Virus record (IMG/VR): IMGVR_UViG_2698536414_000003
Length of the DNA stretch: 12,007 bases
Reading direction: 5' to 3' (one strand)
Source: a virus
Lineage: Duplodnaviria; Heunggongvirae; Uroviricota; Caudoviricetes
Both the position numbers and the translations under genes were made by a program. Shown here piece after piece: positions 805 through 11,583 of this stretch (positions within the stretch are counted from its first letter, which is position 1; each line of letters begins with the position of its first letter). Below the pieces are notes generated by a model that saw only the letters and a program-made list of their open reading frames with translations, was not told the origin of the DNA and made no database searches.

Positions 805-1668
805 TCATTTCGCATCTACAATAAATAACCTGTTTATCTGGCCTTTTTTAACAGTAGCCTTTGCGGTTATAGTGAATACTGCAGATGGATCACCTTTGGT
901 TGATATATATGCACTAAGAGCTCTAATATACGGGTTATTCTTCTTTCCTGCAGCTGGATCGCTAATTTCAGCAGTGATTCTCTTTTTTGAGTCATCACCA
1001 TCTAAAATTATTTTAGCTGTCATATTTTGTGCATCAAATTCTGTAAGAAAAGCACGATACTCACGAAGACCGAGAACTTCATCATCATCAAGCCTATCAA
1101 TTTCAGCTTTATCTCTCTCGTTAACTTTTAGAAGGCAGCCGTCAACATTTGTTGCAACACTTATCTGATCGCAAGTATTACCAATAGGTGATACTGCCTG
1201 CCTTACAGAGGGGCGAAGCTCTACAGCCATTCGGTCAATCAAAGAGATCAACTTATCAATGGTTCCAGCATCCTTGTTTCCTAGTGCCTCTATGGCCTTT
1301 TCAAGTGACTGCTGCAAAGCTTTCATTTCATCTTTCTTGTTAGAATTTCTCGCAAAAATATATTGTAGTATTGCGCCAAGTATAGTTGCGGCGATCCCCG
1401 AGAACAACTGGTTCTGAGTGGCGAAGTTAAGAACTGCTTCAAGAGTAAAGCAGTTAGCTTTTGCTTCGCGTGCGTAAACCTTAACTTCCTGATAATTAAT
1501 GTATTTACTATATTTTTGTGTAACAGAGAAAGAAGCTGCTGTTGAGAGAACTTTAGAAAAACCCTTTAGGGATTCTCCTAGGCAGTTCAAATCTATTTCA
1601 TGATTTAAAGCATCTTTTCCGTCATACCTAAGAGAGATTTTTATATCCTGTAAAGCGTCACAATCCAT
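805..1668 (-). CDS. 287-aa hypothetical protein with one central transmembrane helix; immunity-region cargo at the rexAB-equivalent position; candidate exclusion/abortive-infection gene
   Basis: Clean ORF with a GAGAG Shine-Dalgarno 66 nt downstream of the repressor stop. The DNA is visibly more AT-rich than its flanks. Hydrophobic segment [18 protein letters not shown] at about residues 88-105 (plus 1354-1407). I recognise no family. Confidence 0.7.
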
Positions 1669-1734: not shown

Positions 1735-2424
1735 TTATCCATGTTTCCTGTACGTCTGGGGCATGCTCCCAATAACCTTACCGAAGATGAACACCCGGTT
1801 CATCTCGTCTTTCTCGATCGGGTCCCACGGTGAGTAGCTCTTGTTATCAGAGATAACCAGCAGCTTATCCTTCATCATTTGCAGGCGCTTTACATGGGCT
1901 GTGTCGTCGTACAGAAACGCATAGATACCATCACCGTCGAAAGATTTAACCGTGATATCAACGAACAGCAGATCACCTGGTTCGATCGTTCCTGACATGC
2001 TGTCACCACGCACGTTAATGATGCGGATATTTTCCGCCTTCCTACCATCGAACATGTGACGAGCATCGTCAAACGAGTACTCAACCGAGCGTAGAACTTC
2101 TACAAACTCACGGTTGATGACTCCCGGCCCAGCACTGACTTCTATATCAAGAACGTCAATCTTGAAGTATTTGGAATGGCTGACAGTTGATTGTATTGGT
2201 TGCACTGTACTGTCTGACATATTTCCAACGCCAGAAGATAACCATTCTGCGCGCACACCCAAAGCGTTCGCGATCTCCACGATTTTAGTTGTTTGATTAG
2301 CTTTCCCTGTTTCGATTTTCTGAATAGCAGCCTGGCTAACCCCGACCAAATCCCCAAGCGCCTTTTGTGTAAGGCCTCGCGCTAATCTGGCTTCTTTAAG
2401 TCTTTCTGAGAGTGTTGTTTTCAT
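1735..2424 (-). CDS. cI: CI-type repressor (N-terminal XRE helix-turn-helix, C-terminal S24 LexA-like autopeptidase)
   Basis: HTH segment LTQKALGDLVGVSQAAIQKIETGK; Ala-Gly cleavage site in VSAGPG; GDSM serine motif and HVKRL lysine. Start taken at the ATG at 2424 (MKTTLSERLKEA), which looks leaderless as in lambda PRM; the longer ORF to 2490 would run through the operator. Confidence 0.85.
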   Translation of the reverse strand: MKTTLSERLKEARLARGLTQKALGDLVGVSQAAIQKIETGKANQTTKIVEIANALGVRAEWLSSGVGNMSDSTVQPIQSTVSHSKYFKIDVLDIEVSAGPGVINREFVEVLRSVEYSFDDARHMFDGRKAENIRIINVRGDSMSGTIEPGDLLFVDITVKSFDGDGIYAFLYDDTAHVKRLQMMKDKLLVISDNKSYSPWDPIEKDEMNRVFIFGKVIGSMPQTYRKHG

Positions 2425-2510
2425 AGTCCAAATGTACAACCAAGGTTTTATTCCATCAAACGAAAATGGTTGTTGACTAAAAACAACCATAGTTTTAATC
2501 TTGATTCAAA
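2425..2510. promoter_or_regulatory. OR region with divergent PRM (leftward) and PR (rightward) and three operator-like sites
   Basis: PR: TTGACT 2473-2478, 17-nt spacer, TAATCT 2496-2501. PRM on the minus strand: TTGATG (plus 2455-2460) and TACATT (plus 2431-2436) six nt before the cI ATG. Inverted repeat ATGGTTGTT (2466-2474) / AACAACCAT (2482-2490), plus ACAACCAAGGTTTT at 2435-2448. Confidence 0.6.
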
Positions 2511-5372: not shown

Positions 5373-5569
5373 GCATGATGGATTTCGCAGAAACTAAAAA
5401 GGCTATCGACGCCATCACAACCGACTGGTCTATCCGAGGACCGTATCACGAAGACGACGGGAAATATTACGCCTTGCTTCGTGGAGAGTGGGTTGGTGGC
5501 GGGTATATCGGAAAACGGAAAGCCCTTGATGCCATTCTCGAAAAGTTAATCCAGGAGGCCGCCCAATGA
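5369..5569 (+). CDS. Hypothetical 66-aa nin-region protein
   Basis: ATG overlaps the ren stop (ATGA at 5369-5372). The longer ORF from 5312 would lie inside ren. Confidence 0.5.
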   Translation: MSMMDFAETKKAIDAITTDWSIRGPYHEDDGKYYALLRGEWVGGGYIGKRKALDAILEKLIQEAAQ

Positions 5570-5778
5570 GCAACATCGACAAACCAATGACAAACCGTGA
5601 ACTGGTGGATGCCGCCATTGAATTGGCCGGAGAGTTTTATGCGATGCAGGGCTATTCGCATCGTCCTGGCTTCAAGTATTGGCAATCTCCGCACCCGCAT
5701 GAGCGCCTGTGCTTTGAAATGGTCTTGTGTGGCATTCGAAACCATTCGCGGCTCAGATGTAATGGACGCCGTATCTGA
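5566..5778 (+). CDS. Hypothetical 70-aa Cys/His-containing protein, possibly frameshifted near its 3' end
   Basis: ATGA overlap with the upstream gene. Its first 19 nt are identical to the start of the 5794 gene (MSNIDK). The +1 frame ORF 5597-5797 ends in an ATGA overlap with the 5794 start, suggesting the true C-terminus may be in that frame. Confidence 0.4.
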   Translation: MSNIDKPMTNRELVDAAIELAGEFYAMQGYSHRPGFKYWQSPHPHERLCFEMVLCGIRNHSRLRCNGRRI

Positions 5779-5793
5779 GTTGGAGGATGAAGA

Positions 5794-6207
5794 ATGAGCA
5801 ACATCGACAAACGCGCATTACGTGAAATCGCTGAGGCAGCAGTTGGTGCACATGAGCGCCTTAGTGTTATGCCGCCTGATGACATTTTCGATATCTCACT
5901 GGCAGAAGGAACTCAGCTTGATGCAGATATCACTGCCTTGAACGCGCTGAACTCCGTAGCCAACCCAGCCACAGTGCTGGCGCTGCTGGATGAGCTGGAA
6001 GCCAAAGACCAGAGGATTGCTGTGCTGACCGAATCGCTCAAGCAGACGGTTTCAGGATACAAATCCTGCCTGCGTACCGGACATGAGCGCATTCTTGACC
6101 TTGGCGGTGACTGTGACGCGCCAGAAGTGATGATTGCAGGCAATCCTGACATTCAGCAGGCGCAGAAGCTGATCGCCGCCGCATCCGGTAAAGGAGAGGC
6201 ATCATGA
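5794..6207 (+). CDS. Ead/Ea22-like family protein (tentative)
   Basis: 137 aa, GGAGGA Shine-Dalgarno. The LALLDELEAKDQRIAVL coiled-coil segment resembles what I recall of Ead/Ea22-like prophage proteins. Confidence 0.55.
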   Translation: MSNIDKRALREIAEAAVGAHERLSVMPPDDIFDISLAEGTQLDADITALNALNSVANPATVLALLDELEAKDQRIAVLTESLKQTVSGYKSCLRTGHERILDLGGDCDAPEVMIAGNPDIQQAQKLIAAASGKGEAS

Positions 6208-7010
6208 GCACTATTACCAAACAATGGCTGCAGCAGAAAATTGCCGACATGGAAGCAGCCAGAGATGAAATCCCGTTCGGTCTGGACGAAGGCGACAGCA
6301 ACACGCTGGCGGCACTGCGTATCGCGCTGGCATCGCTCGAAGCGGAGCCTGCCATTCACCGGTGGCGTCGTGTGACCTCTGAGCCATACGGCCCCTATCC
6401 TTGGCATTATGGTGATTTTATCGGCTTCTCAAAGCCCGTTGATGGGATTGAGGATGAGTATTTTTACTCCGCCCCGCCAGAGCCAGCCAATGCCGAAACC
6501 GTAGCCTGGATGTGGTCACACAGGAAACACCCGAGCGAAGTCACGCTTGTTCGCCCTGAAGATGATGAGAGAGCGGAGGGTGCTCACTGGTCTGGCTGGA
6601 GTTGTCAGGCGCTTTATGCAGCACCGCCAGTTCCGGTATCTGTGCCCACATTCGAGAAATGGTGTGAGTTGACTGAGCAGAAACCTGTCGGATGGGTGCG
6701 TGATGCTATGAAAGAAGCGTATGACGGATGCCGCGACGCCATGCTTCAGGGGGCCGAAAAAGCCGAGTCGCCCACCACCATGCAGACCGCGCCAGCCCTA
6801 GATTCTTCGCCAAAAATTTCCGAGTCGCCCGTCAGCAACTCTCCGGTGATTCCGGATGGTTGGGTGCTGGTTCCTAAGGAGCCAACTCCAGAAATGCGTG
6901 AGGCGTACCATCAGGCGCAGGAAGAGTGTGAAGATGGCGGTAGATTATGGAGCCCAGACCACCAATGGAAGGCCATGATCGCAGCAGCACCGCAGCAGGA
7001 GGCGAAGTGA
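6204..7010 (+). CDS. Hypothetical 268-aa acidic protein with a Pro/Ser-rich linker
   Basis: ATGA overlap with the upstream gene and AGGAGAGG Shine-Dalgarno. No family recognised. Confidence 0.6.
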   Translation: MSTITKQWLQQKIADMEAARDEIPFGLDEGDSNTLAALRIALASLEAEPAIHRWRRVTSEPYGPYPWHYGDFIGFSKPVDGIEDEYFYSAPPEPANAETVAWMWSHRKHPSEVTLVRPEDDERAEGAHWSGWSCQALYAAPPVPVSVPTFEKWCELTEQKPVGWVRDAMKEAYDGCRDAMLQGAEKAESPTTMQTAPALDSSPKISESPVSNSPVIPDGWVLVPKEPTPEMREAYHQAQEECEDGGRLWSPDHQWKAMIAAAPQQEAK

Positions 7011-7061
7011 TTATGTCGTGACAGCATAATTGCGATGTCAACGATAAGCAGAGGTTTGAAA

Positions 7062-7256
7062 ATGAAATCACAATCACCAGTGCAGCATGAAGTTAACATC
7101 GACGGCAAAGAGTATGTTGTCACAGTAGTCCAAACCGGCAAGTCAACGTGGAGGGCATGGGGAGATTCCTGGGGGCGCCATATAGTCGAAACAGGTTCTA
7201 GCGAACATAGCGCGCTTTCTCATTGGAAAGCAAAAGCTTTAGTTATGAATGGGTAG
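7062..7256 (+). CDS. Hypothetical 64-aa protein
   Basis: AGAGG Shine-Dalgarno 7 nt before the ATG at 7062. The earlier ATG at 7035 has no Shine-Dalgarno. Confidence 0.45.
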   Translation: MKSQSPVQHEVNIDGKEYVVTVVQTGKSTWRAWGDSWGRHIVETGSSEHSALSHWKAKALVMNG

Positions 7257-7285
7257 CGCGGAAACTTTGAAGGTATAATCCCCTC
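7250..7285 (+). promoter_or_regulatory. Candidate promoter for the 7306 gene
   Basis: Perfect -10 TATAAT at 7274-7279 about 27 nt before the ATG; the -35 is weak. Confidence 0.35.
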
Positions 7286-7305
7286 AAATAATCGAGAGGG
7301 TTTTT

Positions 7306-7815
7306 ATGTCTGGTTGGGATAACGGTATAGATGCAGTTTCTGCGATTGCAGCTATCGCATCTGCGGTAGCAACTTATTTAGCATGGCGATCCTCAGAAGC
7401 TAGCAGGGCCACATCCGAAAAAGCTTTGCAGTTGCAAGGAAAGCAGTATTTGTACGAGACATTAAAAGCTTGCGCTGAGAGAGCGAATTCATACTCAAAA
7501 GGAAAGAAAGGGGCTGACTGGAGCTTTCATGACGCAGCCAATATTGTTCGATGTTTGAACATGGCAATGGGGAGCATAATAAATTACTCAGATACCAACA
7601 ATCAGGATGCAATGAAAGGTCTGAAGCAATTCTTTATTAGCCAATTAAACATGGAGCTTTTTGAAGAGCTCAACTATGAGGTTGGGCCTGATGCCTTCTT
7701 TCACGGAGAGGAGCTAACCAGCATGACGAGCGATATTTACTCGCAGTGGTTAAACATTATTTCATTCTTTAACCTCATGATTGTCACAGATGATGACCTC
7801 GCCGATGAAACATAG
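7306..7815 (+). CDS. 169-aa hypothetical membrane protein (N-terminal transmembrane helix), low-GC cargo
   Basis: GAGGG Shine-Dalgarno. N-terminal hydrophobic helix IDAVSAIAAIASAVATYLAW. More AT-rich than neighbours and followed by a 187-bp non-coding gap. Confidence 0.65.
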   Translation: MSGWDNGIDAVSAIAAIASAVATYLAWRSSEASRATSEKALQLQGKQYLYETLKACAERANSYSKGKKGADWSFHDAANIVRCLNMAMGSIINYSDTNNQDAMKGLKQFFISQLNMELFEELNYEVGPDAFFHGEELTSMTSDIYSQWLNIISFFNLMIVTDDDLADET

Positions 7816-8002
7816 CTTGATTGATTTTCCATAATCAACCCGCCATAATCATGTCATCGGAGCCTGAACAACTCCGGTGACTTCTGCGCTAAACGGGGAC
7901 GTTTATGCGCACATACAATCCAACCTCTCTTCTCCATTCACAGATGCAGAAATGCACCTGCGATATTTTGCATCCAGCGTTTGATCTCTGCGGAGGTGAA
8001 GC

Positions 8003-8458
8003 GTGAACCTCCCACAAGATGGTATCAAATTGCATCGCGGTAACTTCACCGCTATCGGTCGGCAGATCCAGCCTTATCTGGAGGACGGCAAATGCTTTCG
8101 CATGGTGCTTAAACCGTGGCGCGAGAGACGCAGTCTTTCCCAGAATGCACTCAGCCACATGTGGTACAGCGAAATCAGTGAATACCTCATCAGCAAGGGT
8201 AAAACGTTCGCTACTCCAGCTTGGGTAAAAGATGCTCTCAAACACACATATCTCGGTTATGAAACCAAAGACCTGGTTGATGTCGTAACCGGTGATATCA
8301 CCACTATCCAGTCGTTACGCCATACCTCCGATCTTGATACCGGAGAGATGTATGTCTTCCTGTGTAAGGTTGACGCCTGGGCGATGAATATTGGTTGCCA
8401 CCTGACTATTCCACAGAGCTGCGAGTTTCAGCTGCTGCGCGACAAGCAGGAGGCGTAA
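8003..8458 (+). CDS. ybcN: YbcN-like protein
   Basis: 151 aa, at the head of the ybcN-ninE-ybcO-rusA-ylcG order I recall from the DLP12 prophage. Confidence 0.7.
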
Positions 8459-10368: not shown

Positions 10369-10444
10369 GGCCCTTTAGCTCAGTGGTGAGAGCGAGCGAC
10401 TCATAATCGCCAGGTCGCTGGTTCAAATCCAGCAAGGGCCACCA
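10369..10444 (+). tRNA. ileZ: tRNA-Ile (anticodon CAT, ileX-like)
   Basis: Cloverleaf folded by hand: 7-bp acceptor GGCCCTT / AAGGGCC, D-stem GCTC/GAGC, anticodon loop CTCATAA (CAT at 10402-10404), T-loop TTCAAAT, CCA encoded. Near-identical to E. coli ileX as I recall it; the CAT anticodon alone cannot exclude Met. Confidence 0.85.
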
Positions 10445-10451
10445 TCACATA

Positions 10452-10528
10452 CCGCCATTAGCTCATCGGGATAGAGCGTCAGCCTTCGAAGCTGGCTGTG
10501 CGGGGTTCAAGTCCCCGATGGCGGTCCA
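10452..10528 (+). tRNA. argN: tRNA-Arg (anticodon TCG)
   Basis: Acceptor CCGCCAT / ATGGCGG, anticodon loop CTTCGAA (TCG at 10486-10488), T-arm CGGGG TTCAAGT CCCCG, CCA encoded. Confidence 0.8.
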
Positions 10529-10541
10529 TTATCAGCATCAT

Positions 10542-10618
10542 GCGTTGTTAGCTCAGTCGGACAGAGCAATTGCCTTCTAAGCAATCGGTCACTGGTTCGA
10601 ATCCAGTACAACGCGCCA
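10542..10618 (+). tRNA. argO: tRNA-Arg (anticodon TCT)
   Basis: Acceptor GCGTTGT / ACAACGC, anticodon loop CTTCTAA (TCT at 10576-10578), T-loop TTCGAAT, CCA encoded. Confidence 0.85.
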
Positions 10619-10702: not shown

Positions 10703-11218
10703 GTGAGCTTACGGAGTGGTCAGTGTGACTTTCTCTGTGGGCAGATCGCTCCCGGGCGTTGGCTCACCCACCCAAAGGAACGTCACGATGTTTGTATTTT
10801 TGGTAAAAAAGCCCGCCGAGCGGCAGTGGAAATTAAAAAGTTTGAGAAACGTGATCTGGCACAGGCGGTTATTAATGCTGCCTATCTGGTGGCCTATGCA
10901 GATGGTGAATGTGAGGCTTCAGAGAAAGTGAAGATCGAGCAGGTCTTGCGTAACCAGCCTGCGTTGTCCGCGTTTACGTCAGAAATTAATGCGATTAGCG
11001 CAACCATTATCGGTCAGCTGGATACGAACTTTAAAACTGGTCGTCGAGCGGCATTGCGTGAAATTGAAGATGTGAAACACGATACGCGTGAAGCGGAAGA
11101 TGTGCTGGATGTGGCGGTGGCCATTGCGGAGGCAGACGGCGAAATTGAGCCGGAAGAGCGCAAGGTGCTGGAAGAGATTGCCGGTGTTCTGGGTCTTCGT
11201 CTGGAGAATCACCTGTGA
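10703..11218 (+). CDS. TerB-like domain protein; start uncertain (possible -1 frameshift from the ATG at 10788, or a GTG start near 10826)
   Basis: Two ADG-containing motifs typical of TerB-like domains (LVAYADGECEASEKVKIEQVL and VAIAEADGEIEPEERKVLEEIAGVLGL). The frame has no internal ATG; the only ATG with a good Shine-Dalgarno (AAGGAA, ATG 10788) is in another frame. Confidence 0.55.
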   Translation: MSLRSGQCDFLCGQIAPGRWLTHPKERHDVCIFGKKARRAAVEIKKFEKRDLAQAVINAAYLVAYADGECEASEKVKIEQVLRNQPALSAFTSEINAISATIIGQLDTNFKTGRRAALREIEDVKHDTREAEDVLDVAVAIAEADGEIEPEERKVLEEIAGVLGLRLENHL

Positions 11219-11382: not shown

Positions 11383-11583
11383 TTTTTTTATTTGCTGTTT
11401 ATTAAAAACACTTCTGCATGGTGAATCCCCCTGTGCGGAGGGGCGATCAGCAACCAGGTATATGGGATAATCGCGGATTCAGGTGCTGATACTGAATTCA
11501 CCGGGAGGCACCCGGCACCATGCTTTGCCACAAAAGTGTTGTTTCTGTTTTTCTCAAACTATCATCGTTATCCCTTTATTTCC

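What the first reader, a model, noticed from the sequence alone, without database searches (positions are those of the whole stretch)
7035..7860. Low-GC two-gene cargo module with a membrane protein in the nin region
A 64-aa protein (7062-7256) and a 169-aa protein with an N-terminal transmembrane helix (7306-7815) interrupt the otherwise conserved nin/Q-proximal gene order. They are more AT-rich than their neighbours, have a perfect TATAAT -10 at 7274-7279, and are followed by a 187-bp gap. The small-plus-membrane pairing suggests a toxin/immunity or exclusion module.
Basis: partly seen in the sequence, partly recalled or inferred. Interest (0 to 1): 0.6.

Follow-up and report, generated by a model that had tools for sequence, protein, structure and literature searches.

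The report
Two separate prophage cargo genes
The two low-GC genes are real, but they are two independently swapped single-gene cargo cassettes in a variable slot of a lambda-like E. coli prophage, not a toxin/immunity pair, and what either one does is still unknown.

Summary
The window is a lambdoid E. coli prophage: cI, cro, O, P, ren, cargo, ylcH, ybcN(ninB-like), ninE, ybcO, rusA, Q. Both ORFs exist as described. The 64-aa ORF (7062-7256) is a real gene (dN/dS 0.11) that PGAP leaves unannotated. The 169-aa ORF (7306-7815) is a full-length member of PHROG 1779 (function unknown), an all-alpha protein with a conserved N-terminal hydrophobic helix. Both are more AT-rich than their neighbours.

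The pairing is not conserved. The small gene sits only beside copies of the 169-aa gene that are at least 95% identical. About 70 other loci with 45-96% identical homologues lack it. Elsewhere the small gene is followed by a DNA polymerase III theta homologue.

The TATAAT is real but has no -35. It is the 5' edge of a conserved linker, TATAAT-CCCCTC-loop-GAGGGG-U-run-ATG, found in at least 120 viral contigs in front of unrelated genes. This linker is the exact left recombination junction of the 169-aa cassette.

The "187-bp gap" is not empty. It is the conserved ylcH/orf33 segment with a promoter-like site, shared by about 2650 E. coli genomes, and it forms the right junction.

No homology or fold match assigns a function. 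Verdict: ordinary mosaic cargo. The toxin/immunity reading is not supported. The linker is the most interesting by-product.

The parts
7016..7061 (+). Conserved leader of the small-gene cassette (…TGTCGTGACAGCATAATT… plus the AGAGG Shine-Dalgarno).
   Evidence: It is conserved in Klebsiella and metagenomic prophages whatever gene lies downstream. The ATG at 7035 is not conserved.
7062..7256 (+). 64-aa protein-coding gene. Soluble, pI 8.2, four beta-strands followed by a C-terminal helix. Function unknown.
7274..7305 (+). Conserved linker: TATAAT (7274-7279), 5' arm CCCCTC (7280-7285), loop (7286-7293), 3' arm / Shine-Dalgarno GAGAGGG (7294-7300), T-run (7301-7305), then the ATG. It is the left recombination junction of the 169-aa cassette.
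   Evidence: It occurs in >=120 IMG/VR contigs in front of unrelated genes. In a scan that did not constrain the preceding hexamer, 59 of 70 instances have TATAAT there. Homology between 169-aa cassettes with different upstream genes starts exactly at TATAAT. The hairpin is -15 to -21 kcal/mol in relatives but only -10.8 (z -2.0) here, because of a G->A change relative to strain WS0115A. It is called terminator-like in L001 but not in the window.
7306..7815 (+). 169-aa gene. Member of PHROG 1779 (unknown function). N-terminal hydrophobic helix followed by an all-alpha domain and an acidic C-terminal D-x-D-L-x-D tail.
7816..8002 (+). Backbone segment, not part of the cargo. It holds a promoter-like TTGATT-17-CATAAT (7821-7849), a palindrome (7853-7881) and the start of the ylcH/orf33 homologue (7905-8006). 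It is the right junction of the slot.
   Evidence: It is conserved in about 2650 E. coli genomes starting at about 7810-7821. It follows six different cargo types. Phage 82 record X92588 annotates the putative -35, -10 and regulator-binding site here. The 33-aa translation matches phage 82 orf33.
8003..8458 (+). ybcN (NinB/Orf-like) gene, the first gene of the conserved nin block.
   Evidence: phrog_72 E 1.7e-51. PGAP names it 'DNA base-flipping protein YbcN'.

Best explanation
**What it is.** Positions 7035-7860 hold two separate single-gene accessory cassettes that happen to lie side by side. They sit in the hypervariable ren-to-ylcH/ybcN cargo slot of a lambdoid E. coli prophage. They are not a functional two-gene system.

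**Shown:**
- Each gene assorts independently of the other.
- The 169-aa cassette is bounded on the left by a ~32-nt conserved linker (TATAAT-CCCCTC-loop-GAGGGG-U-run-ATG).
- It is bounded on the right by the conserved TTGATT-17-CATAAT / ylcH segment.
- Both boundaries are shared by many unrelated cargo genes.

**Inferred:**
- These two short conserved flanks serve as homology anchors. Cargo genes are exchanged between prophages by homologous recombination, for example by the Red (exo/bet) functions that the near-identical prophage in strain WS0115A carries upstream of the window's region.
- The linker folds in RNA so that the Shine-Dalgarno of the cargo gene is paired with CCCCTC and followed by a U-run. 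It therefore most likely insulates the cargo gene from upstream PR-driven transcription and translation, as a weak tR2-like terminator or SD-occluding hairpin.
- Because TATAAT abuts the 6-nt 5' arm, a transcript started from it would begin in the loop and carry a free SD. The same element may therefore double as a weak -10-only promoter.
- The 169-aa protein is anchored in the inner membrane by its N-terminal helix, with its helical domain and acidic tail in the cytoplasm, and it acts on its own. My best guess at its role is a single-protein exclusion/abortive-infection-type or host-modulating cargo function, with about 0.35 probability for phage defence.
- The 64-aa protein is an unrelated small soluble accessory protein.
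For: **Independent assortment**
- The small gene is present only beside >=95% identical copies of the 169-aa gene. It is absent from L029, L063, L064, L065 (88-96% identical) and from all ~65 loci with 45-71% identical homologues.
- The small gene is followed by a theta homologue in L013-L017.
- A chimeric remnant of it lies before a DUF4145-like gene in L291.
- In Serratia, 169-aa homologues lie in an integrase/AlpA/ParE-like element; in phages PhiR26_1 and PhiR5_1 they lie after Rha.

**Fixed slot**
- Most 169-aa family members lie 186-201 nt upstream of ybcN.

**Junctions**
- The left junction is at TATAAT.
- The right junction is at about 7810-7821.

**Linker**
- It occurs in >=120 viral contigs, and 104 of 125 instances have an ATG within 25 nt. 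It precedes theta homologues, a 60-aa basic protein, the 169-aa family, a ~164-aa protein I did not scan, and others.
- TATAAT precedes 59 of 70 instances found without constraining that hexamer.
- Hairpin energies are -15 to -21 kcal/mol in relatives.
- It is called terminator-like in L001.
- Lambda has tR2 in the equivalent ren-ninB gap.

**Other cargo in the slot**
- SIR2, a DUF4145/HEPN-like protein, ybcK/L/M, various hypothetical proteins, and PD-lambda-1 nearby.

**Membrane anchor**
- Hydropathy is conserved in 44 of 51 family members.
- P0061 carries extra N-terminal hydrophobic segments ahead of the family domain.

**Recombination functions**
- Exonuclease, bet and gam are present in the same prophage in L001.
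Against: - No direct evidence exists for any function of either protein.
- The window's own hairpin is weak (-10.8 kcal/mol, z -2.0) and is not called a terminator.
- No compensatory base changes were seen in the stem, only G-U wobble variants. The structure is therefore supported by loop variability, not by covariation.
- The scan patterns fixed parts of the motif, which biases its apparent conservation.
- Membrane insertion rests on hydropathy only. The AF2 confidence for residues 1-36 is below 50.
- Co-linkage of the two genes in E. coli and Klebsiella prophages, with 86-100% identity for the small protein, shows the pair has travelled together for some time. A facultative interaction therefore cannot be excluded.
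Confidence: 0.65

Rival explanations
1. The 64-aa and 169-aa genes form one two-gene toxin/immunity (or exclusion) operon with its own promoter at 7274-7279.
For: - The genes are adjacent, on the same strand and low in GC.
- The downstream partner is membrane-anchored.
- The pair is co-linked in E. coli and Klebsiella prophages.
Against: - Co-occurrence is limited to one recent mosaic block. About 70 loci with homologues lack the partner, and the small gene has other downstream partners.
- The proposed promoter lies between the two genes, so it could not drive both.
- The 49-nt spacer holds a hairpin that is itself the recombination junction.
- There are no TA or defence family hits.
Confidence: 0.07
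2. The 169-aa gene alone is a classic moron. It is transcribed in the lysogen from the TATAAT inside the linker and protects the host by superinfection exclusion or abortive infection at the inner membrane.
For: - TATAAT is kept in 59 of 70 linkers, although only its last 3 nt are needed for pairing.
- A start 7 nt downstream of the hexamer would fall on the first loop base and leave the SD unpaired (sequence).
- GC is low.
- There is presence/absence polymorphism.
- The slot elsewhere carries SIR2, a DUF4145/HEPN-like protein, and PD-lambda-1 nearby.
- A membrane anchor is present.
- Homologues occur in a non-lambdoid Serratia element.
Against: - There is no -35 and no extended -10 in the window, and the scan does not call a promoter.
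- No terminator follows the gene before ylcH.
- There is no PADLOC hit.
- Alternative occupants behind the same linker, such as the theta homologue and a 60-aa basic protein, are not defence-like.
Confidence: 0.25
3. The linker is simply a tR2-type intrinsic terminator / translational-coupling hairpin of the PR operon. Both genes are delayed-early lytic accessory genes, expressed only under N antitermination, with no role in the lysogen.
For: - The genes are co-oriented and tightly packed with the PR operon.
- Lambda tR2 lies in the equivalent position with a similar layout: hairpin, T-run, then the next gene's ATG about 25 nt later.
- The linker is called terminator-like in L001.
- The SD is sequestered in the 3' arm.
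- In many contexts the upstream stop codon lies 2-5 nt before TATAAT, which fits ribosome-mediated unfolding.
Against: - The stem is short (6 GC-rich pairs plus A-U extensions), the loops are 7-10 nt long and the U-run is only about 5.
- This model does not explain why the full TATAAT is conserved.
- The window's copy is weakened by a G->A change.
Confidence: 0.3

Closest known systems
PHROG 1779 (phage protein family of unknown function)
   Same: The 169-aa protein matches the profile end to end (residues 3-167 on profile positions 2-169, E 2.5e-77). Homologues lie in temperate Escherichia phages PhiR26_1 and PhiR5_1 at the same position before ninB.
   Different: Nothing distinguishes it from the family. 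The family itself has no assigned function, Pfam domain or solved structure.
Morons / accessory cargo genes of lambdoid phages (as defined for HK97 and HK022; reviewed in PMC3594210, found, abstract only read)
   Same: The composition differs from the neighbours, there is presence/absence polymorphism between otherwise near-identical prophages, and each unit is a single gene with sharp junctions at its boundaries.
   Different: The classic definition requires an own promoter and a downstream terminator. Here only a -10 hexamer without a -35 is present, and no terminator-like site follows the gene.
Lambda tR2 terminator in the ren-ninB gap
   Same: Both are a hairpin plus T-run in the intergenic space just upstream of a nin-region gene, in the same part of the PR operon.
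   Different: There is no sequence similarity. The linker hairpin is shorter, its 3' arm is the SD of the next gene, the ATG follows directly after the T-run, and a perfect TATAAT abuts the 5' arm. The linker recurs in front of many different genes.
Type II toxin-antitoxin / toxin-immunity pairs (for example HicAB, Rhs TreX-TriX)
   Same: A small upstream protein with a beta-sheet-plus-helix fold that weakly resembles the HicB N-domain and TriX, followed by a larger downstream gene.
   Different: There is no conserved pairing, no sequence family match, a hairpin/junction lies between the genes, and the downstream protein resembles no known toxin.
Putative promoter/operator upstream of orf33-orf151 in phage 82 (GenBank X92588 annotation)
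   Same: Positions 7821-7881 of the window align with the annotated -35, -10 and 'possible regulator-binding site' of phage 82.
   Different: This element belongs to the conserved backbone downstream of the finding, not to the cargo. Its activity is only 'putative' in the record.

Membership tests
Two-gene toxin-antitoxin / toxin-immunity module | The two genes co-occur across divergent homologues. | tested here: not met
   The small gene is present only beside >=95% identical copies and is absent from about 70 other loci. It also has other downstream partners.
Two-gene toxin-antitoxin / toxin-immunity module | Either partner belongs to a known toxin, antitoxin or immunity family. | tested here: not met
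Two-gene toxin-antitoxin / toxin-immunity module | Operon organisation with one promoter upstream of both genes and coupled expression. | tested here: not met
   The 49-nt spacer contains a hairpin and recombination junction. The only -10-like hexamer lies between the genes.
Two-gene toxin-antitoxin / toxin-immunity module | Toxicity of one partner, neutralised by the other. | not testable with these tools
   This requires expression experiments.
PHROG 1779 | A significant full-length match to the family profile. | tested here: met
   E 2.5e-77, 259.5 bits, residues 3-167 on profile positions 2-169 of 169.
Moron (autonomous cargo transcription unit) | Atypical composition and presence/absence among related phages. 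| tested here: met
   GC is 0.43-0.47 against 0.50-0.57. The block is present in 25 of 5426 genomes, while the flanking backbone is in about 2650.
Moron (autonomous cargo transcription unit) | Own sigma-70 promoter upstream. | tested here: inconclusive
   A perfect -10 (TATAAT) is conserved in 59 of 70 linkers. There is no -35 or TG extension, and the scan does not call it. Activity cannot be tested here.
Moron (autonomous cargo transcription unit) | Own terminator downstream. | tested here: not met
   There is no terminator-like site between 7816 and 7944. The next one (7945-7962) lies inside ylcH.
Known anti-phage defence or superinfection-exclusion proteins | Homology to a catalogued defence protein. 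| tested here: not met
   There is no PADLOC hit for either protein at E<=1, and no informative fold match.
Known anti-phage defence or superinfection-exclusion proteins | Expression in the lysogen and protection against superinfecting phage. | not testable with these tools
   This requires transcriptomics and plaque assays.
Intrinsic (rho-independent) terminator, for the linker 7274-7305 | A GC-rich stem directly followed by a U-run. | tested here: inconclusive
   Met in near-identical strain WS0115A (9 pairs, 5 GC) and in other loci (-15 to -21 kcal/mol). Not called in the window, where a G->A change leaves -10.8 kcal/mol.

The most novel reading that the evidence does not exclude
The TATAAT-CCCCTC-loop-GAGGGG-U-run linker is a dedicated, portable cassette junction of enterobacterial lambdoid prophages. 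In this reading it combines an insulator (terminator / SD-occluding hairpin) with a minimal promoter. It marks the 5' end of single-gene cargo cassettes and, together with the conserved ylcH-upstream segment, drives an integron-like turnover of accessory and defence genes. The 169-aa family (PHROG 1779) would then be a new single-protein, membrane-acting exclusion or abortive-infection factor delivered by this system.
Probability: 0.15. Interest if true: 0.65.

Novelty: new member of a known kind. Interest (0 to 1): 0.3.

Why it matters
As first proposed, a new toxin/immunity module in the nin region would have been of moderate interest, but the evidence does not support it. Three things remain useful.

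1. The work shows how adjacent low-GC genes in a prophage can look like an operon when they are in fact independent cassettes.

2. It precisely delimits a cargo slot (ren to ylcH/ybcN) in a very common family of E. coli prophages. In other strains this slot carries defence-type genes such as SIR2 and a weak DUF4145/HEPN-like protein (sub-threshold Pfam hits).

3. It identifies a short linker element that recurs in front of unrelated cargo genes in more than 100 (pro)phage contigs and coincides with recombination junctions. An exact-sequence search of open-access papers found no description of it. If the linker proves to be a regulatory insulator/promoter or a recombination anchor, it would help explain how lambdoid phages shuffle single genes, and it would give a simple sequence handle for finding cargo genes.

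The 169-aa family is a small membrane-anchored family restricted to Enterobacterales with no known function. It is a reasonable but unremarkable candidate for phage-resistance screens.

Tried and rejected
**Family and sequence searches**
- Pfam, NCBIfam and PADLOC scans of both proteins gave nothing. Scans of 16 more distant family members also gave nothing above noise.
- Profile searches of PDB sequences gave nothing meaningful: no match for the 169-aa family and five chance-level matches (E 0.25-8) for the 64-aa profile.

**Fold searches**
- Foldseek against BFVD gave no hit with E<=0.001.
- The afdb50 library was not available.

**HeLo/SesA-like lead**

**Other comparisons**
- hhalign of the 169-aa family against the DUF4145-like cargo protein of L291 showed no relationship.
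- Rfam found no family in 7000-8000.
- Covariation in the linker stem could not be shown. Only CCCCTC, CCTCTC and CTCCTC variants opposite GAGGGG (wobble pairs) were found, with no double changes.
- A dimeric-protein operator reading of the palindrome was rejected, because the arm spacing varies from 4 to 13 nt.

**Literature**
- Searches for the exact linker sequence, for the PhiR phages and for nin-region morons found nothing that describes these genes or the linker.

**Not possible**
- A complex prediction for the two proteins could not be run.
Full report
**Setting.** The window is the early-right region of a lambdoid E. coli prophage.
- Its genes, in order, are: S24 repressor (1735-2490, minus strand), cro-like regulator, YdaT-domain protein, O, P, ren, several small accessory ORFs, an Ead/Ea22-like protein (5794-6207), a 268-aa hypothetical protein (6204-7010), the two ORFs of the finding, ylcH, ybcN (NinB/Orf-like), ninE, ybcO, rusA, ylcG and a QuuD-type antiterminator.
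- Stretch 6900-8100 is 99.9% identical to the chromosomes of strains WS0115A and NCTC9112.
- The whole stretch is present in only 25 of 5426 complete E. coli genomes.

**Checking the observation.** The sequence-level claims hold.
- ORF 7062-7256 (64 aa) has an AGAGG Shine-Dalgarno. The longer 73-aa reading from 7035 is not conserved in relatives.
- ORF 7306-7815 encodes 169 aa.
- GC is 0.47 and 0.43, against 0.54-0.57 upstream and 0.50-0.53 downstream.
- TATAAT sits at 7274-7279 and is the only perfect copy in the window. One copy in 12 kb is no more than expected from base composition (my arithmetic gives about 3 per strand). No -35 or TG extension accompanies it, and the promoter scan does not report it.
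- The N-terminal hydrophobic stretch of the 169-aa protein has a Kyte-Doolittle 19-residue mean of 1.74. The equivalent stretch reaches >=1.6 in 44 of 51 family members, and no other part of any member does.
- A 288-aa relative (P0061) carries additional hydrophobic segments in front of the family domain.

**The 169-aa protein.**
- It matches PHROG 1779 (unknown function) end to end (E 2.5e-77).
- It matches nothing in Pfam, NCBIfam, PADLOC or PDB sequences.
- An exhaustive profile search of 1.84 billion representatives finds only 36 relatives. The named ones are all 'hypothetical protein' from Enterobacterales: Hafnia, Cronobacter, Pantoea, Serratia, Enterobacter, Citrobacter, Kluyvera and others.
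- Family-wide conserved positions are an RAN motif, W72, P128 (usually followed by D), W148, an FF pair (usually) and, in most members, a C-terminal D-x-D-L-x-D tail. None suggests a catalytic site.
- A UniRef label on a Hafnia homologue ('Fungal N-terminal domain') hinted at a HeLo/SesA-like membrane-disrupting domain. The current Pfam models do not reproduce it.

**Are the two genes a unit? No.**
- I collected 84 loci with a 169-aa-family gene from IMG/VR and GTDB genomes, plus ten loci found earlier.
- In every locus that has it, the small gene ends 53 nt upstream of the 169-aa gene's start, and only where the 169-aa copy is >=95% identical.
- Four loci with 88-96% identical copies (L029, L063, L064, L065) have unrelated genes upstream. 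All ~65 loci with 45-71% identical homologues lack the small gene within +/-4 kb.
- Conversely, an 81% identical small gene is followed by a DNA_pol3_theta homologue in five contigs.
- In strain SCU-113 a chimeric remnant (47% identity over the 58 aligned residues, nearly all of it in the N-terminal half) precedes a 210-aa protein with sub-threshold Pfam hits to DUF4145 and HEPN.
- In Serratia the 169-aa homologue sits in a different integrative element, between a ParE-like gene and an exonuclease/AlpA/integrase block.
- In the temperate phages PhiR26_1 and PhiR5_1 it follows Rha.
- At the DNA level the 169-aa family is detectable in 201 complete E. coli genomes and the small gene in 41.
- The pairing is therefore a recent linkage within one mosaic block, not a conserved system.

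**The slot and its junctions.** Most family members, across the whole 45-100% identity range, lie 186-201 nt upstream of ybcN.
- *Right junction.* The sequence shared with about 2650 E. coli genomes starts at window position ~7810-7821, right at the stop codon of the 169-aa gene. An alignment of six different cargo contexts shows homology starting at TTGATT (7821) in five of them. These are the 169-aa gene, a 71% identical homologue, the PhiR26 type, the DUF4145-like gene and K-12 ybcM; in the theta-cassette locus the TTGATT segment is diverged and clear homology begins at CATAAT.
- *Content of the shared segment.* It carries a promoter-like TTGATT-17-CATAAT (7821-7849) and a palindrome (7853-7881). 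These correspond to the putative -35, -10 and regulator-binding site annotated in phage 82. It also carries the 33-aa ylcH/orf33 ORF (7905-8006).
- *Left junction.* It is equally sharp. In L029, L063, L064 and L065, similarity to the window begins exactly at TATAAT.

**The linker.**
- TATAAT is the 5' edge of a conserved element, TATAAT-CCCCTC-(loop of 4-13 nt)-GAGGGG-AUUUUU-AUG.
In 104 of 125 instances an ATG follows within 25 nt.
- The downstream genes are unrelated: about 45 theta homologues, about 25 copies of a 60-aa basic protein, about 16 members of the 169-aa family, a few copies of a ~164-aa protein that I did not scan against any family library, and singletons.
- A second scan that fixed only the hairpin and the U-run found TATAAT in front of 59 of 70 instances, with CATAAT and TACAAT once each. 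These sit in at least a dozen different upstream contexts that diverge right up to the hexamer.
- As RNA the element folds into a 9-13-bp hairpin of -15 to -21 kcal/mol in other loci. The window's copy reaches only -10.8 kcal/mol (z -2.0) because of a G->A change relative to WS0115A.
- The terminator scan calls the WS0115A copy but not the window's.
- The 3' arm is the Shine-Dalgarno of the cargo gene.
- I saw only wobble variants of the stem and no compensatory double changes. The variable arm spacing argues against a dimeric protein operator.
- Lambda has its tR2 terminator in the equivalent ren-ninB gap, with a comparable layout.
- Rfam has nothing here, phage records do not annotate it, and an exact-sequence search of the paper library finds no description.

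**Interpretation.**
- *Shown:* there are two independently assorting single-gene cassettes, the slot is fixed, and both junctions are conserved.
- *Inferred, exchange:* the linker and the ylcH-upstream segment act as homology anchors for cassette exchange. The same prophage in WS0115A encodes exonuclease, Bet and Gam.
- *Inferred, linker function:* the linker most likely insulates the cargo gene from upstream transcription and translation, through terminator-like behaviour and SD occlusion. Because TATAAT abuts a 6-nt arm, a start 7 nt downstream would fall on the first loop base and produce a leader with a free SD. This would explain why the whole hexamer is conserved although only AAU is needed for pairing. 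That dual insulator/promoter idea is attractive but untested.
- *Inferred, the 169-aa protein:* it is probably a single-pass inner-membrane protein with a cytoplasmic helical domain. The basic residues following the helix favour C-in, but only weakly.
- *Role:* its function is open. Other occupants of the slot include defence-type genes: SIR2, a weak DUF4145/HEPN-like protein, and PD-lambda-1 nearby. They also include non-defence genes such as theta and ybcK/L/M. I put about 0.35 on an exclusion or defence role, about 0.3 on a delayed-early lytic accessory role, and the rest on other or no detectable function.

**Verdict.** The interpretation as a toxin/immunity pair with its own promoter is not supported. 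The locus is ordinary lambdoid mosaic cargo: a new member of a known kind. Its most interesting by-product is an apparently undescribed linker that recurs at cassette boundaries.

Noticed in passing
window 7274-7305; also L129-L290 (IMG/VR): A conserved linker, TATAAT-CCCCTC-loop-GAGGGG-U-run-ATG, recurs in more than 120 viral contigs in front of unrelated genes and coincides with mosaic junctions. An exact-sequence search of the paper library found no description of it.
   Followed up: partly
window 7821-7881: A promoter-like TTGATT-17-CATAAT followed by the palindrome TCAyCGGAG…CTCCGGTGA is conserved in front of ylcH-ybcN in about 2650 E. coli genomes. Phage 82 record X92588 annotates it only as 'putative'. 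It suggests that the nin block may have its own regulated promoter.
   Followed up: partly
window 805-1668 (minus strand): A 287-aa ORF with the lowest GC in the window (0.38) lies just beyond the cI-type repressor, in the position of lambda rexAB. It has weak hits to PADLOC candidate PDC-S42 (E 1.5e-4) and NCBIfam LAPAL_fam (E 4.7e-6, below cut-off). It may be lysogen-expressed defence cargo.
   Followed up: no
window 10369-10618 and 11390-11559: Downstream of Q there is a cluster of three tRNA genes (Met-CAT, Arg-TCG, Arg-TCT) and a strong match to the sRNA family STnc100 (104 bits; gathering score 47). The near-identical prophage in WS0115A instead carries an ompC-like porin gene after Q.
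   Followed up: no
window 10703-11218: A 171-aa ORF after the tRNA cluster has a weak match to the co-chaperone DjlA model (NCBIfam E 3.9e-6, far below cut-off). Its function is unclear.
   Followed up: no
window 7297 versus L001 9398: The window's linker differs from that of strain WS0115A by one G->A change (GAGGGGG to GAGAGGG). The change puts a bulge in the stem and removes the terminator-like call. The same variant occurs in IMG/VR contig 2695420458_000002.
   Followed up: yes
L291 2518-3323 (E. coli SCU-113): A 58-aa ORF appears to be a chimera of the N-terminal half of the small protein and the C-terminal end of a theta homologue. It is followed by a 210-aa protein with weak DUF4145 and HEPN_Swt1 hits. 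This shows repeated rearrangement in the slot.
   Followed up: partly
L294 21-1952 (E. coli BEC1-S17-ESBL-07): A 643-aa SIR2-family protein occupies the same region upstream of ylcH-ybcN. In some prophages the ren-to-ylcH segment therefore carries defence-type cargo.
   Followed up: no
window 5566-5797: The ORF between the 66-aa gene and the Ead/Ea22-like gene is annotated as frameshifted in the near-identical WS0115A prophage. In the window, two overlapping reading frames cover the stretch.
   Followed up: no
P0037 (Hafnia alvei homologue of the 169-aa protein): UniRef names it 'Fungal N-terminal domain-containing protein', a label used for HeLo/SesA-like domains of fungal NLRs. The current Pfam library gives no such hit.
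   Followed up: yes
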